Shown here: in pieces, positions 1,913-61,518 of the stretch
Layout of the letters: the number at the start of each line of letters is the position of its first letter
How positions within the stretch are numbered: position 1 is the first letter of the stretch
Origin: an uncultured bacterium
Lineage (GTDB): Bacteria; Patescibacteriota; Doudnabacteria; UBA920
Length of the DNA: 64,000 bases
NCBI GenBank assembly: GCA_963749445.1
Contig: CAVVMJ010000010.1
Location: 254,021-318,020, forward strand
Reading direction: 5' to 3'
Notes under the pieces: generated by a model
What the model saw: only the letters and a program-made list of their open reading frames with translations
The model's database searches: none
What the model was told of the DNA's origin: nothing
Program-made: the position numbers and the translations under genes

Positions 1913-2640
1913 TTGTTTAACATTACCATTATGATAGAGTGTAAAAATATCTCTAAATCCTACTTTAGCGGCGATTTGGAAACCCAAGTTTTGCGCGATG
2001 TATCCTTTTCCATCAACGACGGCGAATTCGTGGCCATTATGGGCCCGTCCGGCAGCGGCAAGTCCACGCTCATGCACATTTTGGGCGCGCTGGACACGCC
2101 GACTCCGGCAAATATTTTTTGGACGGGCAAGACGTGTCGCAAATGAGCGACGATGAGCTGGCCGCCATTCGCCGCAAAAAAATCGGTTTTGTGTTCCAAG
2201 CGTTTAATTTGCTGGCTCGCGCTACGGTAGTCCGCAACGCCGCCCTGCCTTTGGTTTACGCGGAAGTCCCGAAAAACGAACGCGAAGAGCTGGCCAAAAA
2301 AGCGCTGCGGCAAACCGGACTGGACGAATCGCGGTTTTATCACTTATCCAACCAGCTGTCCGGCGGGCAGATGCAGCGCGTGGCCATTGCCCGCTCTTTA
2401 GTCAACGACCCCGCTTTGTTGTTAGCGGATGAGCCCACCGGCAACCTGGACACCCACACCGGCGAAATCGTACTGTCCACTTTCCAGTCGCTCAACAGGC
2501 AAGGCCGGACAATTATTTTAATTACCCACGAACACGACGTAGCCATGCACGCGCAGCGCATTATCCACATCCGCGACGGCCAAATTTTAAGCGACGAAAT
2601 TAATCGGCAACAAGTTTTGGCAAAAATTTCAAAAGAATAA
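1913..2640 (+). pseudogene. ABC transporter ATP-binding protein (MacB/LolD-like), interrupted by a -1 frameshift near 2100-2125
   Basis: ORF 1913..2146 carries Walker A (GPSGSGKST). ORF 2119..2640 in another frame carries the Q-loop, the LSGGQ signature, Walker B (LLLADEPTGNLD) and the H-loop. Restoring one T in the run at about 2103-2120 gives a continuous MacB-like ...[23 protein letters not shown]... Confidence 0.8.
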
Positions 2641-28295: not shown

Positions 28296-29048
28296 TTATT
28301 TCGTATTCCATTCAATCAACTTGCCTGCCTGAATTTCAACCGGATCCGCTTTGCGTAAATTTTTTAGCTGCTGGCTGTTTAAAATTTTATAGTGTTTCGC
28401 TTTATCCAAATAATCCGGCAGATCCGCCAAATCCTTTTCCGTGGTGCGCCAATCAGCGCTTCCGCTCCCCTTCTTTTCAAGGAGGGGTGGACGCCGCAGG
28501 CGGACGGCTTGTCCTCCGAAGCCTTGGCGAAGGTGGGGGTGGTTGGAACTAAACGGGTGTTTATCGAAAAATCTCAGATCAAACGGCGCGGAGTATTCCC
28601 GCAGCGTCTTTCTGCCGCTGTCCAAAAAATATTCGTGGAAATACGACAACGACAATTCACGGATAGTTTTATATATCGGTTCGCGATAACGCAGCACCGC
28701 GTGGTTGGTTTTGCTAATCGCGCCCCAGCAGCCGAACTGCTTAAACAAGGCCACTACGTGATCTAAATCGTCATCTGTCGAACGTAAATCCAGTAAAAAC
28801 GGCTTATACCCATGAAATTCCAAAATTGCCGCGGCCAAAAGCGCGCCTTCCATACAGTGGGCTTTACCGATTTTTAAAACCTCCCGCGGGCTGCGGCACT
28901 CCACGCCGTCCTTGGCCGGATTATGCCTAATTTTAAACGCCAAAAAATCCTGAATTTTTTTGGGCGAATCCAGACTTTTGAATACTTTTATTTCCCGAGG
29001 TGTATAAAGAAGCATTTTGTGCCTGATTCTGTTTGTGACGGCCGTCAC
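28296..29048 (-). CDS. hypothetical protein with a possible papain/transglutaminase-like Cys-His core; contains an in-frame family-B repeat
   Basis: 250 aa with a GKAHCMEGALLAAAIL motif. The repeat at 28455..28550 is embedded in opposite orientation to copy B1. The N-terminus overlaps a perfect palindrome, so the true start is probably the internal MLLYTP. Confidence 0.4.
   Translation of the reverse strand: MTAVTNRIRHKMLLYTPREIKVFKSLDSPKKIQDFLAFKIRHNPAKDGVECRSPREVLKIGKAHCMEGALLAAAILEFHGYKPFLLDLRSTDDDLDHVVALFKQFGCWGAISKTNHAVLRYREPIYKTIRELSLSYFHEYFLDSGRKTLREYSAPFDLRFFDKHPFSSNHPHLRQGFGGQAVRLRRPPLLEKKGSGSADWRTTEKDLADLPDYLDKAKHYKILNSQQLKNLRKADPVEIQAGKLIEWNTK
28455..28550. repeat. GC-rich palindromic repeat, family B (copy B2), in-frame within a CDS
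   Basis: See 25850..25998. Confidence 0.7.
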
Positions 29049-29058
29049 AAACAGAATC
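29023..29058. promoter_or_regulatory. perfect 34-36-bp palindrome GATTCTGTTTGTGACGGCCGTCACAAACAGAATC at the junction of two tandem genes
   Basis: Read directly. Shares the core TGACGGCCGTCA with 4219..4256. Confidence 0.5.
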
Positions 29059-29060
29059 AG

Positions 29061-29969
29061 CTACTTTCTTGATTGAACTCCGTGGCCTCCAAATTGTTTC
29101 CTCAATAGTGCCACAATTTTATTGGAAAATTTTTCCTGATTTTTTTTGTCTGAGGATTCTTGACGCACTTTTAATGAATCTTCAATGACGCGCGCGTCCA
29201 CACCCAATTCTTTAGCCGCGCTCACGGTCCATTCCCCCTCGCCGGTAGCCTCGATGAATCCCGATGTTGATTCAATGTCTTCGTTTTCAAAAATATCGCG
29301 CACCAAGTCAATCAGCCAGCTTTTGATTACCGACCCTTCCTGGTAAATTTTGGTAACCTGGTTTAAATCCAATTTAAATTCACTCGCATGCAGCACGCCG
29401 TAGCCCTCAGCGATTGATTCCATCATCCCGTACTCAATGCCGTTATGCACCATTTTAACAAAATGCCCAGCGCCGTTTTTGCCGACCAGCCCATAGTTCT
29501 CTCCGGATGATAAAGCCTTCATCAGCGGCTCAATTTTTGGCCACTGCTCCTTTGGCCCGCCGACCATAAGCGCGAAACCGTTTTTTTCGCCCCACACTCC
29601 CCCGCTAGTACCACAATCATAAAACACTATCCCCTTAGCCCTTAGCCCTTCTGCCCTCCTGATGGAATCTTTATAGAAAGAGTTACCGCCGTCTATTACA
29701 ATATCGCCGGGCTTTAAATGCGGGCCGAGCTGGTTTTGCAAAAATTCGTCCACAATTTTGTGCGGCAGCATCAGCCAGAAAACTCGCGACTGATCAGTCA
29801 TATTTTTCAACAGCCGCCCAACATCAGCGAACGCCTTTACTCCGGCCTTGGCGACTTCTTCGCGCGGACCGGCCGACCGGTTCCACGCCAAAATCTCAAA
29901 CCCGCAGCTTTGCAGCCGCCGCGCAATCTGCCCGCCCATTTTGCCTAACCCAAATATCGCTACTTTCAT
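29061..29969 (-). CDS. gnd: 6-phosphogluconate dehydrogenase, decarboxylating, short (about 300 aa) NAD(P)-binding form
   Basis: Rossmann N-terminus MKVAIFGLGKMGGQIARRL plus the 6PGDH C-domain. Adjacent to zwf. Confidence 0.8.
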   Translation of the reverse strand: MKVAIFGLGKMGGQIARRLQSCGFEILAWNRSAGPREEVAKAGVKAFADVGRLLKNMTDQSRVFWLMLPHKIVDEFLQNQLGPHLKPGDIVIDGGNSFYKDSIRRAEGLRAKGIVFYDCGTSGGVWGEKNGFALMVGGPKEQWPKIEPLMKALSSGENYGLVGKNGAGHFVKMVHNGIEYGMMESIAEGYGVLHASEFKLDLNQVTKIYQEGSVIKSWLIDLVRDIFENEDIESTSGFIEATGEGEWTVSAAKELGVDARVIEDSLKVRQESSDKKNQEKFSNKIVALLRKQFGGHGVQSRK

Positions 29970-31207: not shown

Positions 31208-31450
31208 ATATTGGCAATCAGGGAGGTAACTTAAACAATTATTGCCTAAGATAAGACCAAAATCAATAAAATCATTGACAAAATTATTTAGATGTGACAT
31301 AATGTATAAACTAATCAATCTATTAGACTCGTACTCATACTTATCTGAAATACTGAAATATTTCCGACCTTTGAGAAAACGGGTCGGAAATATTATTTAT
31401 GACACCACCCTTCGGCTCCGCTCAGGGTTTCGGTGTCTAAATTGTAAAAC

Positions 31451-32852
31451 TATGATACCTCAACAACCTACGTTTGACGGCCTGGGCATTGCGCCAAAAC
31501 TTTTAGAGATACTTGACAGGCTCCAATTTAAAACGCCCACGCCAATCCAGCTCCAGTCCATTCCGACCGCCCTGCAAGGCAAGGACATTATGGGCATTGC
31601 CCAAACCGGCACGGGCAAAACCCTGGCTTTCGGCATACCCATGATCCAACGCCTGGCAAAGGACAAAGGCCGTGGCCTGATTATTCTGCCCACGCGCGAA
31701 CTCGCCGTGCAGGTGGATGAAGCCTTAAACAAACTCGGCCGGCCCATTGGGCTGAAGACCGCGGTGTTAATCGGCGGGGAAAACATCGGCAAGCAAATCC
31801 GCCAGCTAAGAAACAACCCGCACATTATTATTGCCACGCCGGGAAGGCTGATTGACCATTTGGAACAAAAAACCGTCCGACTCAACGACGTCGTAATTTT
31901 GATTTTGGATGAGGCCGACCGCATGCTGGATATGGGTTTTGCGCCGCAGATAAAAAAAATCCTGGTCACCGTACCGGCCAAAAGGCAGACCATGCTGTTT
32001 TCCGCAACCATGCCCCAGGAAATTGTGCAAATTGCCAACTCTTATATGCAGCTGCCCGTACGCGTGGAAGTTGCCCCGTCCGGCACCGCGGCGCAACTGG
32101 TAACCCACGAGCTGTTTTTTGTCCATAAGCAGGACAAAATGGCGCTGCTGGAAAACCTGCTTAAAGAATACAAAGGCAGCGTGCTGATTTTTTCCCGCAC
32201 CAAATTCGGCGCCAAAAAAATCGCGGCCAGCCTGAACCGCTTGGGTCACACGGCCGCGGAAATCCACAGTAACCGTTCACTAAACCAACGCCTGGAGGCC
32301 CTAAACGGCTTTAAGGTCGGCAAATACAGGGTTTTGGTAGCCACGGACATTGCCGCGCGCGGCATAGATGTTACCGGCATTGAACTGGTCATAAATTTTG
32401 ATTTACCGGAACAGGCCGAAGATTACGTGCACCGGATTGGCCGGACCGGCCGCGCCGAACACAGCGGCCACGCCATCTCCTTTGCCACGCCCGAGCAAAA
32501 ATTTGATGTCCGCGCCATTGAACGGCTCATTAAAAAACAATTACCCGTCTCTCCCCTGCCGGCGCTCCCCGAAAGAAAAATTACGGACGATTATTCTCCC
32601 GTGCGCCAACACCGCAGCACAGGTTTTGGCGGTTTCCGCAGGCCTGACCGGCATTCGCGCGACAGCTTTGGCAGCCACGGCCAATCCCGGCCGTCACAAA
32701 CCCCCGAGCCTTTGCGCAGCCGTTTTGCCCGCCACAGTCGCTCGAGCAGCGACGTGGCCCGCAGGACCGGGCCGCCATCAAGCGGCCAAAAATTCCGCCC
32801 CCGCCGGCAATTCAAAACCTTCCGCCGCATGCCCCAGGACAGATCGTTCTAA
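31451..32852 (+). CDS. DEAD-box ATP-dependent RNA helicase with an Arg/Ser/Pro-rich C-terminal tail
   Basis: Q-motif, Walker A AQTGTGKT, PTRELA, DEAD, SAT, HRIGRTGR. The track ORF begins at 31242, but the likely start is the M at 31451. The leader contains a 12-bp perfect-stem hairpin (atatttccgacc...ggtcggaaatat). Confidence 0.85.
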
Positions 32853-33445: not shown

Positions 33446-34930
33446 CTACCTCGTCTGCCACTTCCGGTCGTCTTTGGCCATAAGCTCGTCCGACTGCTTG
33501 GGGCCGTTACGCCCAGGTTTGTACTTATAAAGCGGCAGGCTCCTAAACACCGGGCTGTCGGTAATGCTGTCCACGAATTTCCAGGCGGCCTCTATTTCGT
33601 CGCTACGGATAAATAAGCGCTGGTCGCCCTCCATAAAATCGAGCAGCAGCCGTTCGTAAGCCGACGGGATTTCGCTCTGGAAATTTTTTTGGTAGCCAAA
33701 CTCGTAATCGCCCTGGTGGAGCTGGATGCCAAAGCCGGGCACTTTGTTGTTGAGCCGCAAATGCACGGACTCGTCCGGCTGGATACGGAAAGTCAAAACA
33801 TTGGCCGCGCAGCCTTCAAACAGGCAGCGCGCCTGTTCGCGGAAATGGATGGAAATTTCCGTGAGTTTTTTGCTCAGGCGTTTGCCGGTGCGCAAATAAA
33901 ACGGCACGCCGGCCCAGCGCGGCAAATTTATGTAAGTTTTTAGGGCAAAAAAAGTTTCCGTGGCGCTTGTCCCGCCCTTGGGGCTTAGGCTTTTGATGTC
34001 TTTGGCATAACCTTAGTACTGGCCCAAAACCAGCCGCGCCGGCAACTTGTCCGGCCCCAGAATCTGGAGCGCGTTAAGAACGCGCAGTTTTTCGTTGCGG
34101 ATCATGTCCGCAGTCAGCTGGTACGGCTCTTCCATGGCAATCAACGCCAACATTTGCAAAATATGATTTTGTAAAAAATCTTTAATCGCCCCGGTCCGGT
34201 CGTAATACGCGGCGCGGCCGCCCACGCTGTCTTTTTCCAAAACCGAAATTTCCACGTGCTCAATGAAGCGATTATTCCACAGCGGCTCAAACAAAGAATT
34301 GGCAAAACGCACCACCATCAAATTCTGCACCGTTTCCTTGCCCGCGTAATGGTCAATGCGGTAAATTTGGTCTTCGGCAAAATACTTGAGCAACAGGGCG
34401 TTTAAATCCCGCGCGGATTTTAAATTAAAGCCAAAAGGTTTCTCCGCCAAAATCCGGACTTTGCGCCCGTGTGCCGCGCAAGCGGAAAGCAGGCCGGTCT
34501 GCTTTAAAATTCGGGCGATGGAAGCGAAAAACTGCGGGCTGGTTGCAAAATAATATAACCGGTTAAAACACTTATGCCGAGGCTGTTCTTTGGTTTCCAA
34601 AAGTTTAGTTAGCGGGCCAAAAGACGATACATCCGTAAAATCGCCCTGAAAATAAGTCAAATTGCGCAAAAAATGCTGGCGCTGTTTTTGGGTGATTTTT
34701 TTAATGACCGAAGATTTTTTAACAATGAAGTCAAGATATTTTTCGCTGGTCAGAGGCCTCCTGCCCACGCAAACCAGCTGGAAATCTGCCGGCAGCATGC
34801 CTTCCTGGTCCATATGAAGTAGCGCCGGCAGCAGGTAGTCGGAGGACAAATCGCCGGTGGCGCCAAAGATGGTCAAAACCGTGGGCGGCAACTTTTGAAT
34901 TAAATAATGGAACCCAAAGCCATGTTTCAT
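33446..34930 (-). pseudogene. zwf: glucose-6-phosphate dehydrogenase (zwf) interrupted by a single in-frame TAA at 34013..34015
   Basis: N-terminal ORF has GATGDL, EKPFG, RIDHYAGKE and ends ...LVLGQY*. The same frame continues as GYAKDIKSLSPKGGTSATETFFALKTYINLPRWAGVPFYLRTGKRL..., which is the G6PD C-domain. The two halves are in one frame. Confidence 0.8.
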
Positions 34931-34989
34931 AAAAACCCCGATTTAACTATACATCAAGAAACCTAGTAAGACAATCCCCTGTTAATGCC

Positions 34990-35090
34990 TTGATGGGCAC
35001 CTTCGAGGTTGTAGTTTAGTTGACGGTCATAGACGCGCTGATTAATGAAAATCGACAAACCTATTTTGTCGCACGAAGGTGCCCATCAAG
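34990..35090. repeat. TIR-element copy D5 (TTGATGGGCACCTTCGAGG ... CACGAAGGTGCCCATCAAG)
   Basis: Terminal inverted repeats with compensatory substitutions (GGGCACCTTCG / CGAAGGTGCCC). Confidence 0.7.
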
Positions 35091-35161
35091 CGCATCAAAA
35101 AAATTTATGCCAACTCCGGCATAATAGTGTATAATACCAATAACCATTAACAATTTTTTCT

Positions 35162-35392
35162 ATGAGCTATTACGAACACCACAAGCGTTCCCTGGCAAAA
35201 ACCATTGGTTTCCACACCTTAATAATTTTGGCGGATTTAGTCGTGGTTTTTGTCATTACCCACCAATACCAAATCACCATCAGTATAATCTTGTTTACCA
35301 ATTTGATGAGCGGCTTGATTTACTTTTTGCACGAACGCGCCTGGAACCGCATCCACTGGGGGAAAAGCAGTTTGGAAATAGAGTTAAAATAA
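35162..35392 (+). CDS. DUF2061-family small membrane protein
   Basis: 76 aa with two TM helices. Matches the DUF2061 pattern (HKRSLAKTIGFHTL ... FLHERAWNRIHWGK). Confidence 0.5.
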   Translation: MSYYEHHKRSLAKTIGFHTLIILADLVVVFVITHQYQITISIILFTNLMSGLIYFLHERAWNRIHWGKSSLEIELK

Positions 35393-35394
35393 CA

Positions 35395-35455
35395 ACAACG
35401 ATAACTATAACCATAACCATAACCATAACAAAACCAGCCGTTATGGTTATTTTTT
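35395..35455. terminator. bidirectional terminator preceded by an (ATAACC)x4 microsatellite
   Basis: ataaccataaccataaccataacaaaaccagccgttatggttattttttatt. Confidence 0.5.
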
Positions 35456-35459
35456 ATTG

Positions 35460-36482
35460 TTATTGTTCTTTACCTTTTATATCGGTTCTGTAGATACCCA
35501 CCAGGGCCACAAAAATTGCCATCAAAATCGGGCCGAGCAAAACGCCCAAGACACCGAAGCTGACTACCCCGCCCAAAATGGCGAAGATAGTCAACAGCGG
35601 GTGCAGGCGGACCCGGGCCGAGACCAGCTTGGCCGCCAAAACGTTGTCAATGAGCGCCACTGAGGCCGCGGCCCAAATGGCCATGCCCACTGCCGCGCCA
35701 AAATGGCCGGTGACATACAAAAAACCGATGGCCGGCAGCCAGACCAAAGACGTGCCAAAGGTCGGCACGAACGCGGCCACGAACATTGCGCAACCCCACA
35801 ACAGGCTGTTGGGCAGCCCAAAAATCGAAAAACCGATAAACGCGGCGGTGGAAATGGACAGCACCACCAAAAACTGACCCTTGATTACGCCGCTCACCGC
35901 CTGGGTGAGTTTGTTGAACAAGATATTTTCGTTGGCCGCGGACAAAGGCAAAATATCTTTCAATAATTTTTTTATGGCGTCACCGTCGCGCAGCAAAAAG
36001 AAAGTGGAAAACGCCACCACAACCAAAGAGCCAAACAGCCAGCCCAAAGATGATAGCAGGCCGGAAAGCGAGGCGAACGCCTGGCTCGTAAGCTGGGCCA
36101 CCCATGCGTGAATGTCAACATTAAAGCTAATGGCTAATTGCTGCAAAGGCTGGGGCAAGCTGTGCACAAAAGCGCTGGACTGCCCGGGCAAATTACCCAG
36201 GTTCAGGGACCTATAAAAATTCGCCAACTCAAAAAATACCTGCTGGCCAATCAGCAGCACCGGCCCGGCAATGATGATGGCGATCAGCAACACCACAAAG
36301 CCCGCGTTTAAATTGGGCGCTTTGAGATGCCGCTCCAGGCGTTCGTAAAGCGGATGGAACAACACGGCCAAAATCAAGGCAAAAGCCAGCAGCTCCCAAA
36401 ACGGCCAAAAAATCTTTAATACGATTAGCGCCGCCGCCGCCAGCAGCACAAAGAACCCGATGGTTTGTGTTTTTTGTTTCAT
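35460..36482 (-). CDS. AI-2E family transporter (PerM/YhhT, UPF0118)
   Basis: 340 aa, 7-8 TMS, with AI-2E-like topology and motifs. Confidence 0.7.
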   Translation of the reverse strand: MKQKTQTIGFFVLLAAAALIVLKIFWPFWELLAFALILAVLFHPLYERLERHLKAPNLNAGFVVLLIAIIIAGPVLLIGQQVFFELANFYRSLNLGNLPGQSSAFVHSLPQPLQQLAISFNVDIHAWVAQLTSQAFASLSGLLSSLGWLFGSLVVVAFSTFFLLRDGDAIKKLLKDILPLSAANENILFNKLTQAVSGVIKGQFLVVLSISTAAFIGFSIFGLPNSLLWGCAMFVAAFVPTFGTSLVWLPAIGFLYVTGHFGAAVGMAIWAAASVALIDNVLAAKLVSARVRLHPLLTIFAILGGVVSFGVLGVLLGPILMAIFVALVGIYRTDIKGKEQ

Positions 36483-36753
36483 TTTAGATGATACTGATAT
36501 ACGGATTAATACGGATGATACCGATAATACTAATACGGTTAAATATCCGTATTATCGGTATTATCAGTATGCATCAGTATATCGGTATCTCATGTATATT
36601 ATAGCAAATTATTGACATTATTGTAAATTAATGCTATATTTTAAGCTACTTCCCGAAAAGTAGCGCGGGATTTTTTAGTGAACTAATTAAAAACAATTTC
36701 GAATTGCGTATTACGAATTCTTAATCCGTAATGCGTAATCCGTAATACTCAAA

Positions 36754-38706
36754 ATGAAAAGGGATAACATACGAAACATCGCCATTATCGCCCACGTGGA
36801 CCACGGCAAGACTACGCTGGTGGATGCCATGCTAAAGCAAACCCACAGCATCAAAGACGACGCCGCGGATTTGGTAATGGACAGTATGGATTTGGAGCGC
36901 GAGCGCGGCATTACTATCAAAGCAAAAAATGCATCTCTGATATATAATGGGGTAAAAATAAATATTGTAGATACGCCAGGCCACGCGGATTTTGGCGGCG
37001 AAGTGGAGAGAACTTTAAAAATGGCCGACGGCGTCCTGCTTTTGGTGGACGCCAAAGAAGGCCCAATGCCCCAAACCAAATTCGTGCTCAAAAAAGCTTT
37101 GGAGCTCGGACTTAAAGCCATTGTCGTCATCAATAAAGTGGACAAGCCCGACGCCCAGGTTGACCACAGTGTCAATCATACTTTTGATTTGTTCGTCAAA
37201 CTAAACGCCACCCACAACCAATTGGATTTTCCGATTATTTATGCTTCGGGGGTAAGGGGTCTGGCGGATTTGAATTTGGAAAATCTTTTGGAAAAAATCT
37301 CCGCCCAAGGCGGATCCGCCTCCGGCGGAAAATACTCTGGCGAACCCGACGTCTCTCCCCTGTTTGACGCCATCATCAAATACATCCCCGCCCCGGAAGT
37401 GGAAATGGAAGATGCCTTTGCCGTGCAAATTTTGGCTTTGGCTTACGACAACTACTTGGGCCGCCTGGGCATCGGCAAAGTGTTTTCGGGGAGCTGTAAA
37501 AAAAACCAGAACGCCATGCTGATTAAACAGAGCGGCGAGCGGATGACCTCTAAAATTACTTCCCTGCAAATGTACGAAGGCTTAAAACAAATTGACGTGG
37601 AAGAAGCCGTGGCCGGCGACATTGTGGCTTTTGGCGGCTTTGACGACATCCACATTGGCGACGTTTTAACCGATCCCCTAAATCCCAAAACCCTGCCGCC
37701 CGTGGAAATTGAGCCGCCCACAATAAAGATGACCTTTGGCGTCAACACTTCCCCGTTTGCCGGCCGCGAAGGCAAGTATGTGACCTCGCGCCAGTTGCGC
37801 GAACGCTTAATTAAGGAACTGGAAACCAATGTGGCGCTAAAGGTCCAGGGCTTGGAACAGGGTTCGGATTCGTTTTTGGTGTCCGGCCGCGGCGAACTGC
37901 ATTTGGCGGTTTTAGTGGAAACCATGCGGCGCGAAGGTTTTGAACTGCAGGTTTCCCAACCCGAAGTTATCTACCATTATCAAAGGCCGGACGGTTCTTC
38001 GTCCCCTCTCCCTTTGGGAGAGGGCCAGCCTGCCCGCCAAAGCCTTGGCGACGGCGGGGGTGAGGGTTCGGAGAAAATGACAAAACTCGAGCCATACGAA
38101 ATTCTAACGATTGATGTCCCTTCCGAACACCAGGGCGTCGTAATTGAAGAACTCGGCAAGCGCGGCGGACAAATGCAAATCCTGGAAACCGGCCACGGCG
38201 GCGACGTGCACGCCGAATATTTAATCCCTACGCGTGGCTTGATTGGCTTAAAAAACCTGCTGATGACGCGCACCCGCGGCACCGTGGTCATAAATAATCT
38301 TTTTGACAGTTATAGGCCCGTGCACGACATAGACACCCGCAGCAACGAACACGGCAGCTTGATTGCCTCAGAGTCCGGCCAAAGCAACTCTTACGGCTTA
38401 AACAACGCCCAGCAGCGCGGCATGTTGTTTATCGGCCCGGCCGTTGACGTTTACGAGGGCATGGTGGTGGGCAAAAATTCCGTGGACAGCGATTTGGAAT
38501 TAAACGTCTGCCGCACCAAAAAACTCACCAACATCCGCTCCTCCAGCTCCGATGAAGCCATTATTTTAACTCCTCCGCGTCCGGTGGAACTGGACTTCGC
38601 TCTGGAATACATCGGCGCCGACGAGCTGGTAGAAGTTACGCCGCAGTCCATCAGGATAAGAAAGCGGATATTAAACGCCACCGAACGCAAACGCGCCGCG
38701 AAATAA
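36754..38706 (+). CDS. typA: translational GTPase TypA/BipA, with two in-frame insertions derived from repeat elements
   Basis: G1 AHVDHGKTT, G3 DTPGH, G4 NKVD. Collinear with E. coli BipA throughout. It is 650 aa rather than the usual about 605, because of inserts at about 37300..37340 (GGCGGATCCGCC palindrome, peptide AQGGSASGGKYSGEP) and about 37985..38075 (family-B repeat, peptide RPDGSSSPLPLGEGQPARQSLGDGGGEGSE). Confidence 0.9.
   Translation: MKRDNIRNIAIIAHVDHGKTTLVDAMLKQTHSIKDDAADLVMDSMDLERERGITIKAKNASLIYNGVKINIVDTPGHADFGGEVERTLKMADGVLLLVDAKEGPMPQTKFVLKKALELGLKAIVVINKVDKPDAQVDHSVNHTFDLFVKLNATHNQLDFPIIYASGVRGLADLNLENLLEKISAQGGSASGGKYSGEPDVSPLFDAIIKYIPAPEVEMEDAFAVQILALAYDNYLGRLGIGKVFSGSCKKNQNAMLIKQSGERMTSKITSLQMYEGLKQIDVEEAVAGDIVAFGGFDDIHIGDVLTDPLNPKTLPPVEIEPPTIKMTFGVNTSPFAGREGKYVTSRQLRERLIKELETNVALKVQGLEQGSDSFLVSGRGELHLAVLVETMRREGFELQVSQPEVIYHYQRPDGSSSPLPLGEGQPARQSLGDGGGEGSEKMTKLEPYEILTIDVPSEHQGVVIEELGKRGGQMQILETGHGGDVHAEYLIPTRGLIGLKNLLMTRTRGTVVINNLFDSYRPVHDIDTRSNEHGSLIASESGQSNSYGLNNAQQRGMLFIGPAVDVYEGMVVGKNSVDSDLELNVCRTKKLTNIRSSSSDEAIILTPPRPVELDFALEYIGADELVEVTPQSIRIRKRILNATERKRAAK
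37985..38075. repeat. GC-rich palindromic repeat, family B (copy B3), in-frame inside typA
   Basis: cccctctccctttgggagaggg dyad plus aagccttggcgacggcgggggtgagggttcgg, similar to copy B2. Confidence 0.6.
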
Positions 38707-39521: not shown

Positions 39522-39710
39522 ATGAAAACGCTATCATGCAAGGCCATGGGAGACCCCACCTGCAGCTTTGTCGCCAAAGGCGAAACCGACGAGGAGGTTA
39601 TGGATATGATGATGGAACACATTCAGGAAAAGCACCCGCGGGTTATGGATAACATGGATATGGCAGCCATGAAATCCAAAATGATGTCCAAAATCCAGGA
39701 AGTGATGTAA
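39522..39710 (+). CDS. DUF1059-family small protein
   Basis: 62 aa. MKTLSCKAMGDPTCSFVAKGETDEEVMDMMMEHIQEKH matches the DUF1059 pattern. Followed by a terminator at 39748..39786. Confidence 0.55.
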   Translation: MKTLSCKAMGDPTCSFVAKGETDEEVMDMMMEHIQEKHPRVMDNMDMAAMKSKMMSKIQEVM

Positions 39711-39880
39711 ATGCCCGCCTCCCCTGTCCGCGCCACCTAAAAAATCACCCCGAGCTTTTTCGAAGGGTGATTTTTTTGTTTGGCAAAACTCCGCACACAA
39801 TAAAGCTTCGGTTATATTTTACCTACCTATCCTTGATGGGTCGGGTGGGGGCGAACCCACAATAGGCATATATTTTTGAA

Positions 39881-40009
39881 TTATTTCTCAATAAAAAACA
39901 AACCCGTCGCAACGACTAAAAAAATAATGCCAGCCCTCAGCCAAACCTCGCTTTGCGCCGGGTTAGTTTTGTGTAAGCTCAAAGTGAAGAAATTATACCA
40001 AAATGTCAT
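39881..40009 (-). CDS. small hydrophobic peptide (42 aa) with an LSLHKTNPAQS motif, paralogous to 41251..41361
   Basis: ATG-to-TAA ORF below the track cutoff. Shares an about 50-nt conserved segment (ctttgcRccgggttRgttttgYgYaagctcaaRRtgaRg) with the second copy. Coding status uncertain. Confidence 0.35.
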   Translation of the reverse strand: MTFWYNFFTLSLHKTNPAQSEVWLRAGIIFLVVATGLFFIEK

Positions 40010-40117
40010 TTTAAAGTATATTTGGAGGTGTCTATGCCTTGGATTTCCATGTACTTGATTAAATTCGGTTTGGCAATATTGTTTAGAAATTCTATTGCTT
40101 TCAGCAAATCCGGCATT

Positions 40118-40366
40118 TTAGCTTTTTTTACCGGCTGACCAAAGACCTTTCTTTAGAAGCTGGTCATTTTTTAAAACGCCAATTTGTTTGTCCAGCTGTT
40201 TCTTTTCTTCCCCGGTTTTCTTATGCACGCCTCCGCCGTCCTTCATTTTGGCCAGCATGATAATTAAATTTTCGCGGTATTTTTTAAGCTCGTAATAATC
40301 GTCTACCCTCTCCTGTTCTTTTCTCTTTTCGTTCAAAGTTGGCCTGCCTGTTCTTTTGTTTGGCAT
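40118..40366 (-). CDS. hypothetical small basic protein (82 aa)
   Basis: ORF in an AT-rich islet. Lys/Glu-rich and helical. Confidence 0.4.
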   Translation of the reverse strand: MPNKRTGRPTLNEKRKEQERVDDYYELKKYRENLIIMLAKMKDGGGVHKKTGEEKKQLDKQIGVLKNDQLLKKGLWSAGKKS

Positions 40367-40379
40367 ATATTTTATAATG

Positions 40380-40562
40380 TTAATACTTATACGGCGTGCC
40401 TTTAAAGCCTAATTTTAGCATTTCTTCCGGCGAACGCAAAAAGGGATTTTCGCGATCCAAATTTTTAATAAATTCTTGGATCAAATGTTCCGTTTCCCCC
40501 GGCTCAAAATTAAATTCAGGTTCAAATACTTCTCTGGGTACAAACAGGCCCGGGCGATTCAT
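40380..40562 (-). CDS. hypothetical small acidic protein (60 aa)
   Basis: ORF in an AT-rich islet. Confidence 0.35.
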   Translation of the reverse strand: MNRPGLFVPREVFEPEFNFEPGETEHLIQEFIKNLDRENPFLRSPEEMLKLGFKGTPYKY

Positions 40563-40604
40563 CTCTAAAACTATTTCCTCCTCGTCGGGGTTATGCAGAG
40601 TTTA

Positions 40605-41228
40605 TCAACGAGTTGTCAATTTGAAAGTTTCAGTAATAGTTTTCCAGAATTTGATTGCGGAAAAACCATAATAATCATTTATTGCCGGGGATTCAATTTT
40701 AACAAAAGAGTTATCTAAATAAAATTCAACAAAATTTCTACCCCGGAGGTCTAATTCAGGGTCGTCTTTAAGAAGTTCAGGATCGCTATTAAGAAATCTA
40801 TATTTAATTCCTTGGGGGTTGGTAAACACGGCAGCTGATTCCCATTCCTGCTCTGGAGTGGAAGATTTTTTTACCTCAACATAGAAAGGAGCCGGTTTAA
40901 CTGGCTCTTTCATCTCTGGCGGTGCACCAGGAGGGATTTCCGCAAAACCAGACCATCCGATTTCTATTGAGCAAAAATTTTCATTGATTTTCTTTACTTT
41001 TATATCATCCCAATTTTTAAATACCGGAATCTTAAAAGTAACGCCGGAAATACCATCACAATAAAAATCTTGATTTTCAATTACCCCACTAGTATTCGGT
41101 GATGTAGAAACAGTATTATCCATAGTTTTGTGAAAAGGGTTAAATATTGCAACAGCCAAAATTAATATCAATAAAAGTAGTAGTAGTAATAGTATTAGTA
41201 TAGCAAATATTGAAAGTTTTTTTAACAT
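40605..41228 (-). CDS. hypothetical secreted or membrane-anchored protein with a poly-Leu N-terminal helix
   Basis: 207 aa. N-terminal LLLLLLLLLILILAVAIF anchor, then a hydrophilic domain. No recognisable family. Confidence 0.45.
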   Translation of the reverse strand: MLKKLSIFAILILLLLLLLLILILAVAIFNPFHKTMDNTVSTSPNTSGVIENQDFYCDGISGVTFKIPVFKNWDDIKVKKINENFCSIEIGWSGFAEIPPGAPPEMKEPVKPAPFYVEVKKSSTPEQEWESAAVFTNPQGIKYRFLNSDPELLKDDPELDLRGRNFVEFYLDNSFVKIESPAINDYYGFSAIKFWKTITETFKLTTR

Positions 41229-41250
41229 TATTGGGTGCCAGCTTGGCCAT

Positions 41251-41361
41251 CTAGTGGGGATGCTTGCCGGAACTTTGCACCGGGTTGGTTTTGCGCAAGC
41301 TCAAGATGAGGAAAATTATTCCGAGGGCGGCGAAGATTGTGGAGATGATGTTTGGGATCAT
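41251..41361 (-). CDS. small hydrophobic peptide (36 aa, MIPNIISTIFAALGIIFLILSLRKTNPVQSSGKHPH)
   Basis: ATG-to-TAG ORF. Paralogous segment to 39881..40009. Confidence 0.35.
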   Translation of the reverse strand: MIPNIISTIFAALGIIFLILSLRKTNPVQSSGKHPH

Positions 41362-41399
41362 ATTTAATATCTATACGGCGTGATTTTATTTAAACCATA

Positions 41400-41654
41400 C
41401 TATTTCACCAACCCCATATCTTTTGCCCAGGCTGCCAGTTGCCGGTCTCTCTTCATGTCTTTCTTAAGGATGGTTACAGCCTCGTCCAATGCTTTTTGCA
41501 ATTCAGTCCTGATTTCCTGTTCCTTATTTGGAATTTTTTCCAGTAAATCCTGGAATTCTAAAATAGGATCCTTAAAATTATCAAACTGATCGTTTTTGTA
41601 CATGCGCAGCACCGTTTCGGCACGTGTTATAAGTTCTTGATCATTGTTTGTCAT
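41400..41654 (-). CDS. hypothetical small helical protein (84 aa)
   Basis: ORF in an AT-rich islet. Charged and helical. No family recognised. Confidence 0.4.
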   Translation of the reverse strand: MTNNDQELITRAETVLRMYKNDQFDNFKDPILEFQDLLEKIPNKEQEIRTELQKALDEAVTILKKDMKRDRQLAAWAKDMGLVK

Positions 41655-42249
41655 ATATTTGTAGGGTTATTTATAAATTTAATTGAAAGAAGGAGTAATG
41701 GATATTATATATTTTAATAATGTTTTTTACAGTTCTCGACTTGGAACTTTTTAAAGTTGGGGTTGTTTTGTTTTTGCTTGTGTTGCATATTATCCATAGT
41801 CGCATAAAACTTATCAAACCTGTTCGCCTTTTGCAATCTTGTTTTTCCAGTAATCTATCGCTTTAATGCTGTGCTCAAAATATTGATCGAAATTGTAGTC
41901 CCTGAGCAAACTCAAGCACAATCCTCTAAGCATTTTGTCGGTTTCTATTAAACTTTTCATACGTTTATTTACTCATACTATACAATAAAAAGTAAATTTT
42001 AAAAGTTTTATTACATTTTAATATTATCCATATTTTTCCCCATTAGCTTATATAACTAATTTTACATTTTTCGAAATAATTGAAAGCTTTTTCTCTATTT
42101 TATTTAAGCATATACCCAAAGCCTGGTTATTGTAAATATCCCTTATTTTAGGCAATATTAAAAGGCCAGCCCTTCGGAAGGCTGAGGGCTGCGCCGGGCT
42201 GACACTTTAAAACATCCTTACAAACTTGAGAATGTAAGGATGATATTAT

Positions 42250-42459
42250 TCATCCGATAATATTCTGCACGCGGCCGACTTGGCCGCTTTGTAGGCGGAC
42301 TTTGATGCCGTGGGGGTGGAATTGGGAGTTGGTTAAAATGTCCGCCACCAAGCCGCGTGTGAGTTTGCCGGTTCTTTGATCTTCCTTAAGCACAATGTCC
42401 ACTTCCAGTCCGGGTGATATGTTTTCGCGATTTTGTCCGTCCATAATATATCCCTCCAC
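42250..42459 (-). CDS. YwbE-family (DUF2196) small protein
   Basis: GQNRENISPGLEVDIVLKEDQRTGKLTRGLVADILTNSQFHPHGIKVRLQSGQVGRVQNI matches the YwbE consensus along its full length. Confidence 0.8.
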   Translation of the reverse strand: MEGYIMDGQNRENISPGLEVDIVLKEDQRTGKLTRGLVADILTNSQFHPHGIKVRLQSGQVGRVQNIIG

Positions 42460-49438: not shown

Positions 49439-49828
49439 TTAAGACAATTTGCCCGGGTGATTTTTTATTGAAGTATTTCTGGAAGACGTCATAATGGCAG
49501 TTAATTCATCAGCTTCCTTAAGCAAATCTTGAACTAAAGAAAGCGGAACTACGCCTGACGCGACCAAAAGTTCCAGCCAGCCCAAAGTCTCGTCAGCCTC
49601 TTCAACCACGGTACCCATTTTTGAAATAAAATCCTTGGCTGACTTACATCTGCATACCGCTCGATAATTACCGAAAACACCCGTACCAGAACGTAAAACC
49701 TGGTCGCCCAGCTTCCTTCCGACATTGCCGCAATTCTTTTCCAAATACTGGGCAAGTTTTATAATCTTAATTGCGAATTGTTTTGTTTTTTCCTTTAATT
49801 CTTTTGGATCCATAATTTTTAAAATCAT
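49439..49828 (-). CDS. four-helix-bundle protein (formerly 23S rRNA intervening-sequence protein family, PF05635)
   Basis: 129 aa. LAQYLEKNCGNVGRKLGDQVLRSGTGVFGNYRAVCRCKSAKDFISKMGTVVEEADETLGWLELL is the family pattern. Inserted between pilB and pilC. Confidence 0.8.
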   Translation of the reverse strand: MILKIMDPKELKEKTKQFAIKIIKLAQYLEKNCGNVGRKLGDQVLRSGTGVFGNYRAVCRCKSAKDFISKMGTVVEEADETLGWLELLVASGVVPLSLVQDLLKEADELTAIMTSSRNTSIKNHPGKLS

Positions 49829-49882
49829 GTCGCCGCTTCAATCATGTCAATCTTTTAAATCATGTCAATCTTGTCAATCACA

Positions 49883-56564: not shown

Positions 56565-57776
56565 TTATTTATCTTTCTTGCCCCACTTTTTTATGGCCGC
56601 GTCGTATTCTTTGCCGTAGTTGCCGTCTATGGCCTGCCTCATGGCGCGGACGCCGGCTAAGGTGCCCATGGGGTGGGAGGTTAGGGCGCCGCCGACGTTG
56701 GCCATCCAGTTGGCATGGCCGACTTCGGCTTTAATATACTCCACGAGCCCAGGCTGCATACCGCAGCTAAGTGCCGGCACACAGTTAATATCGTTAAGAT
56801 CCTGGATAATGCGCTTGGTGCGCTCGGTTTCGTCGTTAAGATAGCCGCCGATCATGCCCACATGCAAAGTACTGCAGCCGCTTAAACCGGCCAGGTTAAA
56901 AATTACCCGCTCGTTAATGTTATAGGGACCGGTATTTAAAACTTTGTCCCCGCTTTTTTGGAAATGCATAAGCAAAGGCAAATCCAGTTCGCGCAGGGAT
57001 TTATAAACCCCTAAACCGCAATGGAAATTTATATGGATGCCGTTACCGCCCAAATCCGCCACCAATTTGGCCCGCTTTAAAATATGCGCGGGGTCGGAAC
57101 TCATGGACACGCAATAAAAAACTTTGGCGCCGCTGTCCCTTAAATATTCCATAACCAGCGGCACGCGTTTTTCTATGGGGCAATGCGCCGGATCGGACAA
57201 AATTTCGTCTTCCTTGATAAAATTACAGCCCCCGTCTATAAGCTGTTTGACCAAATCCAAGTGCCGCTCCGGCGACAGCCCGACTTTGGGCTTGACTATG
57301 CCGCCGAACAAAATTTTATTTTCCGGGACGCCGCAATATTCCTTCATCTCCCGCAGGCCTACTTTAGGTCCCAAAAGGCACTTGCGCATATTCGGGGTCA
57401 ACCGGACATCCAGCAGCTCGCAGCCCTCAATGATGTCTATGTCCATTTGTCCCCCCATGGTTTGCACCAGGAGCTGAGAGACGCCGTCAGTCTGGAAATT
57501 AATATTGGCTTCCGGAAAGGCAATCTGCACCGTCCCCTGCTTTAAGCGCTCCAGACTTTTTTCATCGCTGAGCACCAGGCAGGAATGGTGCTCAAACAGC
57601 TCATCGGTTTCAAATTCCGAACGGTTTTTGGGATTGCCCACCGACTGGCCGATGGCCAAATCCCACGCCGCGTCCCTTAAGTTGGTCTGGCTTTTTAAGC
57701 GGTAAGTCGCGATGTAATATTTATTAAAAAATTCTTCCGAAAGCTCGGAGCTCGATCCCCGAAAAATATCAATCAT
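56565..57776 (-). CDS. RuBisCO large-subunit family protein, probably a RuBisCO-like protein (type IV RLP)
   Basis: Strong match to the RuBisCO core LFGGIVKPKVGLSPERHLDLVKQLIDGGCNFIKEDE (KPK, carbamylation Lys and acidic metal ligands present). The HIHRA-equivalent segment reads IHINFH, so the catalytic His/Arg look substituted. About 403 aa, shorter than bona fide RuBisCO. Confidence 0.65.
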   Translation of the reverse strand: MIDIFRGSSSELSEEFFNKYYIATYRLKSQTNLRDAAWDLAIGQSVGNPKNRSEFETDELFEHHSCLVLSDEKSLERLKQGTVQIAFPEANINFQTDGVSQLLVQTMGGQMDIDIIEGCELLDVRLTPNMRKCLLGPKVGLREMKEYCGVPENKILFGGIVKPKVGLSPERHLDLVKQLIDGGCNFIKEDEILSDPAHCPIEKRVPLVMEYLRDSGAKVFYCVSMSSDPAHILKRAKLVADLGGNGIHINFHCGLGVYKSLRELDLPLLMHFQKSGDKVLNTGPYNINERVIFNLAGLSGCSTLHVGMIGGYLNDETERTKRIIQDLNDINCVPALSCGMQPGLVEYIKAEVGHANWMANVGGALTSHPMGTLAGVRAMRQAIDGNYGKEYDAAIKKWGKKDK

Positions 57777-60472: not shown

Positions 60473-61518
60473 CTACAAGGTGAATAATTTTTTTAGGTTT
60501 GCCTCAACCGCGGCCTCGCTGCAATCCCTTAAAATATCCTGCCGGCACCTTTCGTTTTGTCCTTCGGCAATCCCGGGGTGTTGTAAATAATATAAAAGGT
60601 TTTCCGCCAATTTGGCGGAATCGGTCGGCTCATGAAACAAGGCCTTACCGCTAAACACTCCTATAAAGGACATTATTTTCGGCAGGCACAAAGCGCAGCC
60701 GCACAGAGCCGCGTCGTAGACGGCCACGCACTGGCCTTCGTCAAAAGACGAATTCACGCAAACCGCAAACGAATTTAAAACGGCCGCCAAATCGGCCTGG
60801 GCAAAAAACCATAAGTCTTAACATTATCTTTTAAGCCCCGTTTCTCCGCCTCCGGCCAAAAACTTCCGTCGTTAAGCGCGCCAATTACATGCAACTCTAT
60901 TTCCGGCATGCTCTTTTTTAGAATCTTTAACGCGGCAAGGATGGTCGGCAAATTTTTTTTAGGCGCGACATTGCCCAAATAAACCACATTCTTACGCGGC
61001 AAATTGCCGAACTTGTAAAAATATTTCGCTGAAACTGCCAAAGGCGCCACAAATAGTTTGCCCGGCGCGCACCCCCGGGCGACCAGAAATTCCTTTTCCC
61101 GCTCATTGTTTAAACGCACACGGACAAAAAATCTAAACACAAAATCCTGGATCTTTTGCTTAAGCTTGGTCTGCCTGACCACGTGAGTATGGCCCATAAA
61201 AATAGATTTGCCGGCGACAAACGGCACTAAAAAAGACTGCCACTCATAACTGTTCACATAAAACAACGCCCGGCGGTATTTAAACAATTGCCAAAAAAAA
61301 TTCCAGAAATTTTTATAATCAACCACTTTGATGTCCGGATCAAAACGGGGGTCGTTTTGCATATTGCCCGGGCCTTGCCTAATGAGAGCGATCGGCTGGT
61401 AACCCAAAGACTTAGCGACTTTCAGCGCCTGCAGGTGGTAATTTTCTTCCGGCGCAAAATCATACATTTGCCGCGAATAGCCCCAAATTACCGAAACAAA
61501 ATACTTTGGCTGGCTCAT
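60473..61518 (-). pseudogene. glycosyltransferase family 4 (GT1 fold), split by a -1 frameshift near 60775..60795
   Basis: The N-terminal ORF (60775..61518) and C-terminal ORF (60473..60790) overlap. The C-terminal ORF carries the GT4 EX7E-region pattern. The junction lies in a T6/C3 homopolymer context. Confidence 0.7.

What the first reader, a model, noticed from the sequence alone, without database searches (positions are those of the whole stretch)
33926..34015. zwf interrupted by a single in-frame TAA, with both halves intact
The G6PD N-terminal and C-terminal ORFs are in the same frame, separated only by TAA at 34013-34015 (...LVLGQY*GYAKDIK...). Ortholog alignment shows no residues missing. 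The adjacent gnd-like 6PGDH is intact. Options: a very recent nonsense mutation (loss of the oxidative pentose-phosphate entry), a sequencing or substitution error, or stop-codon read-through. TAA is used as a genuine stop by neighbouring genes, so a genome-wide recoding is unlikely.
Basis: seen in the sequence. Interest (0 to 1): 0.5.

Follow-up and report, generated by a model that had tools for sequence, protein, structure and literature searches.

The report
One-base premature stop in zwf
A normal glucose-6-phosphate dehydrogenase gene of a Doudnabacteria-like (Patescibacteria) genome carries one TAA stop where relatives have Gln, Glu or Lys; it is an ordinary single-base lesion at a site that seems to vary among the reads, not a recoding signal.

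Summary
Both halves are collinear with intact G6PDs. In 120 homologues that column holds Q, E, K or L, each one base away from TAA.

Nothing points to recoding or read-through. TAA ends half of the confident ORFs, no homologue has a stop there, and no RNA structure follows it. The part after the stop shows no decay, so the lesion is either evolutionarily instantaneous or not in the DNA at all.

Three new facts bear on the interpretation:
- The window holds two more single-base lesions in otherwise intact conserved genes: an ABC ATPase at about 2103 and a GT4 glycosyltransferase at about 60799.
- An independent Logan assembly of run ERR10755942, 99.93% identical, ends exactly on the base before the T of TAA. 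Its only two differences from the window lie 43 and 46 nt upstream. This points to strain heterogeneity at that base.
- A second species in the same run has a frameshift in the same variable loop of zwf.

Most likely the consensus took the T at a heterogeneous, strain-variable site, as a mosaic or an error. A real, segregating null allele is nearly as likely. Only the reads can separate the two. Interest is low.

The parts
33446..34930 (-). The whole zwf (glucose-6-phosphate dehydrogenase) reading frame, 494 codons plus its terminal TAG, interrupted once.
   Evidence: Translation. Pfam G6PD_N plus G6PD_C on both halves. TIGR00871 at 515.7 bits against a cut-off of 400.6 when read through. Collinear with PDB G6PDs. 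120 homologues at 63-78% identity, those that carry a source name being called Doudnabacteria or Patescibacteria.
34013..34015 (-). In-frame TAA (codon 306). Homologues have Q (37), E (21), K (16), L (13), A (12) or R (6) in this column.
   Evidence: The closest relative, L002, has CAG (Gln) here. Logan contig L001 ends at 34016, the base before the T.
34016..34930 (-). N-terminal fragment of 305 aa, annotated as a separate protein (P0241) in the source record.
   Evidence: Identical protein on Logan contig L001.
33446..34012 (-). C-terminal 188 codons after the stop. The source record calls only a 153-aa piece from a GTG (P0121).
   Evidence: No decay: the C/N conservation ratio is 1.063 against 1.043 +/- 0.032 in intact homologues, with 0 mismatches at columns conserved at 95% or more.
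33950..34012 (-). Variable surface-loop segment (GYAKDIKSLSPKGGTSATETF). This is the most indel-rich part of the family alignment.
   Evidence: Alignment columns +7 to +14 are gaps in 115-117 of the 120 homologues. The frameshift in L005 falls in the same loop.
34058..34061 (-). Two synonymous strain differences (ATT CTG in the window, ATA CTC in Logan contig L001), 43 and 46 nt upstream of the T.
   Evidence: These are the only differences in 2789 nt.

Best explanation
This is an ordinary zwf gene with a single-base change that makes a standard stop codon. CAA to TAA is the simplest path; GAA, AAA or TTA would also need one change. The genome uses the standard code, so any mRNA carrying this codon ends translation at residue 305. 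The product would then lack the last 188 residues of the beta+alpha domain and would be inactive. That last step is inferred from general knowledge of G6PD structure.

The lesion is not a fixed, aged property of the lineage. The sequence after the stop is as well conserved as in intact homologues. The base itself appears to be heterogeneous in the read population of the one run known to contain this organism.

My preferred reading is that the deposited consensus took the T at a strain-variable site. This could be a mosaic of co-existing haplotypes at the edge of the variable loop, or a residual consensus error of the kind that also left two one-base frameshifts in this window. On this reading an intact zwf allele exists in the population.

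Shown: the stop; the collinearity; the lack of decay; normal TAA usage; the two other lesions; the contig break and the clustered differences.
Inferred: that the break reflects two alleles at 34015, and that the other allele is a sense codon.
For: 1. Single lesion with no decay. The C-terminal half keeps all columns conserved at 95% or more, and its conservation ratio is typical of intact homologues. Both halves give strong Pfam and TIGR00871 matches.
2. The homologue column holds Q, E, K or L, all one base from TAA. CAA is used as often as CAG in this genome (226 against 244).
3. Two further single-base lesions sit in otherwise intact conserved genes within the same 64 kb. The MacB-type ABC ATPase has a frameshift at about 2103, and the GT4 glycosyltransferase has a frameshift in a CCC run at about 60799. 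Inserting one base restores full-length domain matches: ABC_tran positions 1-136 of 137 at 121.8 bits, against 68.5 bits before; Glycos_transf_1 positions 15-159 as a single stretch. Three single-hit lesions among about 65 genes fits consensus error or heterogeneity better than three independent, just-happened gene losses.
4. Logan contig L001 (run ERR10755942) is 99.93% identical over 2789 nt and stops exactly at 34016, the base before the T. A look-up through the neighbouring DUF2061 gene finds the same contig, so this is not an effect of how the contig was found. No repeat or palindrome in the window explains that end, unlike the end of L004 at 29031.
5. The only two differences between L001 and the window lie 43 and 46 nt from that end and are synonymous. 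The chance that both fall in the last 46 nt is about 3e-4. The one difference in L004 is also synonymous. Real co-existing strains therefore diverge locally right here.
6. Another species in the same run (L005) has a one-base frameshift 6-7 codons further into the same variable loop. This is as expected if strain-variable loops are mis-threaded by assemblers.
Against: No reads could be inspected, so heterogeneity at 34015 is inferred only from a contig end. A contig can also end through a coverage drop.

Only about 3.7% of random substitutions in these genes create a stop. A random substitution error hitting a stop is therefore a priori uncommon.

C to T is also the commonest real mutation.

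The sequencing technology of the source assembly and of ERR10755942 is unknown.

If ERR10755942 is short-read data, the L005 frameshift is probably real. That would favour true, parallel zwf inactivation.
Confidence: 0.5

Rival explanations
1. A genuine, very recent nonsense mutation (C to T, CAA to TAA) carried by the dominant strain. In that strain zwf is a brand-new pseudogene or a segregating null allele, and the oxidative entry to the pentose-phosphate pathway is lost.
For: The sequence as given has the stop. C to T is the commonest spontaneous change (general knowledge). The population is polymorphic at about 1 site in 1900, so new alleles do segregate. A second species in the same run also has a broken zwf, and an ENA contig (L006) has a multiply broken zwf plus gnd, so zwf may be dispensable for these organisms.
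Against: There is no decay after the stop, and gnd is intact, so at most the event is extremely recent. An independent assembly branches or ends exactly at this base. Two other single-hit lesions in the window suggest a technical source. The lesion pattern in L006 looks like an indel-rich assembly.
Confidence: 0.42
2. Programmed stop-codon read-through, or local or genome-wide reassignment of TAA, so that full-length G6PD is made.
For: Both halves are intact and in frame. That is the only positive argument.
Against: TAA terminates 18 of 36 confident ORFs. No other conserved gene in the window has an in-frame stop. None of the 120 homologues has a stop in this column, and the column is not conserved. 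The 141 nt around and after the stop fold less well than shuffled sequence (z = +1.46). None of the 4 tRNAs called in the window is a suppressor.
Confidence: 0.03
3. A functional split enzyme: the 305-aa and the roughly 153-159-aa products are made separately and assemble.
For: The source annotation lists both pieces.
Against: The first in-frame start codon (TTG at 33925) lies 30 codons after the stop. The conserved TETFFALK segment would therefore be lost. Upstream of the candidate restarts the sequence is G+C-rich, unlike the A+T-rich leaders of real genes here. No homologue among the 120 best full-length hits is organised this way.
Confidence: 0.02

Closest known systems
Bacterial glucose-6-phosphate dehydrogenase (Zwf; TIGR00871; Pfam G6PD_N PF00479 plus G6PD_C PF02781)
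   Same: Same domain order and length. The motifs are present: IFGATGDLS, EKPFG, RIDHYAGKE, and LQNH in place of the usual xQNH catalytic-His motif. The protein is collinear with solved structures (9emm, 1dpg, 2bh9) and shows 63-78% identity to Doudnabacteria/Patescibacteria Zwf. Synteny with the closest genome (L002) is kept: AI-2E transporter, zwf, small ORF, HhH-GPD, gnd.
   Different: One in-frame TAA at codon 306, and a six-residue insertion (KSLSPK) in the variable loop just after it.
Single-lesion pseudogenes and consensus errors in metagenome-assembled genomes
   Same: One base change or one-base indel in an otherwise conserved gene. There are three such cases in 64 kb, and the source annotation splits zwf into two proteins.
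   Different: Nothing distinctive. Whether the lesion is in the DNA or only in the consensus is undetermined.
Stop-codon reassignment in Patescibacteria (code 25, UGA = Gly in Gracilibacteria/Absconditabacteria) and recoded phages
   Same: The organism belongs to the same superphylum. An in-frame stop in a conserved gene is how such codes are first noticed.
   Different: The codon here is TAA, not TGA. TAA, TAG and TGA all terminate confident ORFs (18, 13 and 5). Only this one gene is affected.

Membership tests
G6PD / Zwf (TIGR00871) | G6PD_N (NAD(P)-binding) followed by a complete G6PD_C domain | tested here: met
   G6PD_N positions 2-183 of 183. G6PD_C positions 1-101 before the stop and 123-296 after it. 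The unmatched 102-122 stretch is the variable loop.
G6PD / Zwf (TIGR00871) | Whole-protein score above the curated equivalog cut-off | tested here: met
   515.7 bits against a cut-off of 400.6, with X placed at the stop.
G6PD / Zwf (TIGR00871) | Uninterrupted reading frame giving a product of about 490 aa | tested here: not met
   TAA at codon 306. As written, the locus encodes a truncated 305-aa product.
Programmed read-through or stop-codon reassignment | The stop is conserved at the same position in relatives | tested here: not met
   0 of 120 homologues have a stop. The column is variable (Q, E, K, L, A, R). No relative closer than 78% identity was available.
Programmed read-through or stop-codon reassignment | The codon is not used as a terminator elsewhere, and other conserved genes carry it in frame | tested here: not met
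   TAA ends 18 of 36 confident ORFs. No other conserved gene in the window has an in-frame stop. Same-frame neighbouring ORF pairs belong to different families.
Programmed read-through or stop-codon reassignment | A stimulatory RNA structure or context downstream of the stop | tested here: not met
   MFE -41 kcal/mol against a shuffle mean of -46.3, z = +1.46.
Programmed read-through or stop-codon reassignment | A cognate suppressor tRNA in the genome | not testable with these tools
   Only 64 kb is available. Its tRNAs are His-GTG, Lys-CTT and Arg-TCG.
Aged (decaying) pseudogene | Several lesions and relaxed constraint downstream of the first one | tested here: not met
   A single lesion. The C-terminal half is as conserved as in intact homologues. 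Contrast L006, which has many frameshifts and stops.

The most novel reading that the evidence does not exclude
The stop is real, and so is the frameshift in the same loop of zwf in a second, co-occurring Doudnabacteria-like species from the same run. That would mean parallel, ongoing loss of the oxidative pentose-phosphate entry step in several episymbiotic Patescibacteria of one habitat, caught at the single-lesion stage while gnd is still intact.
Probability: 0.12. Interest if true: 0.35.

Novelty: already known. Interest (0 to 1): 0.1.

Why it matters
It matters mainly for annotation and quality control. Metabolic reconstructions of this genome would score the oxidative pentose-phosphate entry step as absent or split on the strength of one base that is probably not fixed in the population. 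The two additional one-base frameshifts show that the assembly carries single-base lesions at roughly one per 20 kb, so in-frame stops in it should not be read as recoding. If the lesion proved real and were paralleled in the co-occurring species, it would be a small example of gene loss in progress in Patescibacteria.

Tried and rejected
- **Sibling genomes.** None closer than 78% amino-acid identity turned up in the 5.8-billion-protein search or in the GTDB species representatives, which gave one locus, L002, at 79%. Two exact-pattern scans of JGI metagenomes found nothing.
- **The Logan contig on the other side of the break.** I tried exact-product look-ups for the 188-aa tail, the 159-aa TTG ORF in two forms, P0121, the downstream 127-aa ORF and two guessed partial helicase products. 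All returned "not on record". The look-up cap is now exhausted, so the two frameshift sites could not be checked against Logan either.
- **The third homology search**, on the downstream small ORF, returned only the source's own protein.
- **Tracing run ERR10755942 in the literature.** No paper mentions it. I suspect a link to the Nanopore-only Microflora Danica MAG project (PRJEB58634, PMC12313526), but this could not be verified because no supplementary files are held. It is a lead, not evidence.
- **Shine-Dalgarno test for an independent C-terminal start.** It is uninformative, because this genome hardly uses SD motifs (2 of 36 ORFs).
- **Other same-frame ORF pairs separated by one stop.** The pairs gnd/next ORF, 23S-IVP/PilC-like and MarR/HlyD all belong to different families and are separate genes.
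- **The ARAGORN tmRNA call.** Rejected; see the items noticed in passing.

Full report
**What is there**

On the minus strand the frame that starts with ATG at 34930 reads ...LVLGQY, then TAA at 34015..34013, then GYAKDIKSLSPKGGTSATETFFALK..., down to a TAG at 33448..33446.

- The 305 residues before the stop match Pfam G6PD_N completely, plus G6PD_C profile positions 1-101. The 188 residues after it match G6PD_C positions 123-296.
- With an X at the stop, the protein scores 515.7 bits on the NCBIfam equivalog model TIGR00871 (cut-off 400.6).
- It aligns from residue 15 to 492 with solved G6PD structures.

**Who it belongs to, and what relatives have at that column**

A search of the 5.8-billion-protein collection returned thousands of G6PDs. 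The best 120 are 63-78% identical, and the few that carry a source name are called Candidatus Doudnabacteria or Patescibacteria. In a MAFFT alignment the stop occupies exactly one column, flanked by invariant Y (120 of 120) and by G and Y. In that column the homologues have Q 37, E 21, K 16, L 13, A 12 and R 6. CAA, GAA, AAA and TTA are each one substitution away from TAA.

The closest genome is L002, a 1.21-Mb contig at 79% identity. It has CAG there, and it shares the gene order AI-2E transporter, zwf, small ORF, HhH-GPD, gnd. No closer sibling exists in any collection I could reach.

**Is TAA recoded or read through?**

There is no support for either.

- Among 36 confident ATG-start ORFs, TAA is the terminator 18 times, TAG 13 times and TGA 5 times.
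- I annotated essentially all long reading frames of the window with Pfam. No other conserved gene carries an in-frame stop.
- The other same-frame ORF pairs separated by one stop belong to different families.
- The 141 nt around and after the stop fold worse than shuffled controls (z = +1.46).
- The tRNAs in the window are His, Lys and Arg.
- A split enzyme is unlikely. The first in-frame start codon is 30 codons downstream, which would delete the conserved TETFFALK segment.

**How old is the lesion?**

The half downstream of the stop is as well conserved as in intact homologues. Its ratio of C-terminal to N-terminal mean identity is 1.063, against 1.043 +/- 0.032 for the 120 intact proteins. 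The query matches every column conserved at 95% or more after the stop. The lesion is therefore either evolutionarily instantaneous or not in the DNA.

**Other lesions in the window**

Two conserved genes carry one-base frameshifts.

- **MacB-type ABC ATPase (1931..2640, plus strand).** It changes frame at about 2103, from ...GALDTPT to [11 protein letters not shown]....
- **GT4 glycosyltransferase (61518..60473, minus strand).** It changes frame at about 60799 in a CCC run, from ...VKTYGFLP to QADLAAVLNSF....

Inserting a single base restores a 236-aa ATPase with ABC_tran positions 1-136 of 137 (121.8 bits, against 68.5 bits before). It also restores a 348-aa transferase with one continuous Glycos_transf_1 match. 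So three of about 65 genes have exactly one lesion each and are otherwise intact.

**Independent assembly evidence**

The 305-aa product is on record on one other contig, the Logan assembly of run ERR10755942 (L001, 2789 bp).

- L001 is 99.93% identical to window 36804..34016 and ends at 34016, the base before the T of TAA.
- A look-up through the neighbouring DUF2061 gene returns the same contig, so the coincidence is not produced by the way it was found.
- No repeat or palindrome in the window explains that end. By contrast, another Logan contig end at 29031 sits inside a 38-nt perfect palindrome.
- The only two differences between L001 and the window are synonymous (ATT CTG against ATA CTC) and lie 43 and 46 nt from that end. 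The chance of both falling in the last 46 of 2789 nt is about 3e-4.
- The single difference in L004 is also a synonymous third-position change.

These are real co-existing strains, and their divergence is concentrated right at the edge of the variable loop. In a de Bruijn graph, a contig that stops one base before a site is what a two-allele site produces. That step is my inference. I could not retrieve the neighbouring contigs.

**Related loci**

In the same run a different species (L005, about 70% identity) has zwf split into 333 and 153 aa. The cause is a one-base deletion 6-7 codons further into the same loop. An ENA contig (L006) has zwf in three pieces and gnd in two, with many frameshifts. 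It looks like an indel-rich assembly or a truly decayed operon.

**Interpretation**

The TAA is a non-programmed one-base lesion. I cannot decide between a consensus or mosaic artefact at a strain-variable site (preferred, about 0.5) and a real, very recent nonsense allele carried by one strain (about 0.42).

For the artefact:
- the two other single-hit lesions;
- the contig break;
- the local cluster of strain differences;
- the same-loop lesion in L005.

For a real allele:
- only 3.7% of random substitutions make a stop;
- C to T is the commonest true mutation;
- if the run is short-read data, the L005 frameshift is probably real.

Read-through or recoding (about 0.03) and a split enzyme (about 0.02) are disfavoured by direct tests.

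**Correction to the finding**

The gnd-like 6PGDH is intact but lies at 29969..29061, about 3.5 kb away from the end of zwf and separated from it by four genes. It is not adjacent.

**Verdict**

This is an ordinary, already-known kind of event, with low interest. Its practical value is as a warning about single-base lesions in this assembly.

Noticed in passing
window 1931-2640 (+), lesion at about 2103: The MacB-type ABC transporter ATPase, lying between a HlyD-like gene and a MacB permease, is broken by a one-base frameshift (...GALDTPT | SGKYFLDGQ...). Inserting one base restores a 236-aa protein with a full ABC_tran match.
   Followed up: yes
window 60473-61518 (-), lesion at about 60799: A GT4-family glycosyltransferase is broken by a one-base deletion in a CCC run (...VKTYGFLP | QADLAAVLNSF...). 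Inserting one base restores a 348-aa protein with one continuous Glycos_transf_1 match.
   Followed up: yes
L005 1725-3220 (Logan ERR10755942_12730), lesion at about 2662-2666: A second Doudnabacteria-like species in the same run has zwf split into 333 and 153 aa. The cause is a one-base deletion in the same variable loop, 6-7 codons after the column of the window's TAA.
   Followed up: partly
L006 1970-4422 (ENA ERZ25039482 contig_104910): zwf is in three pieces and gnd in two, with many frameshifts and stops. This is either an indel-rich (long-read?) assembly or a truly decayed oxidative pentose-phosphate operon.
   Followed up: partly
window 29023-29060: A 38-nt perfect palindrome (ATTCTGTTTGTGACGGCCGTCACAAACAGAAT core) sits exactly between the gnd stop codon and the GTG start of the next ORF. 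Logan contig L004 ends inside it.
   Followed up: partly
window 56613-56976 (+): ARAGORN calls a permuted tmRNA here. It lies inside a 403-aa RuBisCO-large-chain-like ORF on the other strand (56565-57776), and Rfam finds no tmRNA. It is probably a false positive.
   Followed up: yes
window, upstream of 36 ATG-start ORFs: Only 2 of 36 genes have any Shine-Dalgarno-like motif. Leaders are A+T-rich, and several have TATAAT-like hexamers within about 20 nt of the start. This suggests SD-independent or short-leader initiation.
   Followed up: no
window about 39600-42250: A low-G+C stretch (0.36 at 40-42 kb, against about 0.48 elsewhere) holds only short or family-less ORFs, including a 207-aa ORF with a poly-Leu N-terminus at 40605-41228. 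It may be foreign DNA.
   Followed up: no
window 31302-32852 (+): A DEAD-box helicase with an Arg/Ser/Pro-rich C-terminal tail lies between the small ORF after zwf and the HhH-GPD gene. It is absent from that position in the closest relative, L002.
   Followed up: no
window 36754-38706 (+): TypA/BipA is 650 aa long and has Gly/Ser-rich insertions (for example GGSASGGKYSGEP and SSPLPLGEGQPARQSLGDGGGEGSEKM). This is longer than the ~600-residue length I recall for BipA (own recollection, not tested here).
   Followed up: no
window 49442-49837 (-): A gene for a 23S-rRNA-intervening-sequence-type protein (PF05635) sits between the PilB-like T2SSE ATPase and the PilC-like T2SSF gene, in the same frame as the latter.
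   Followed up: no
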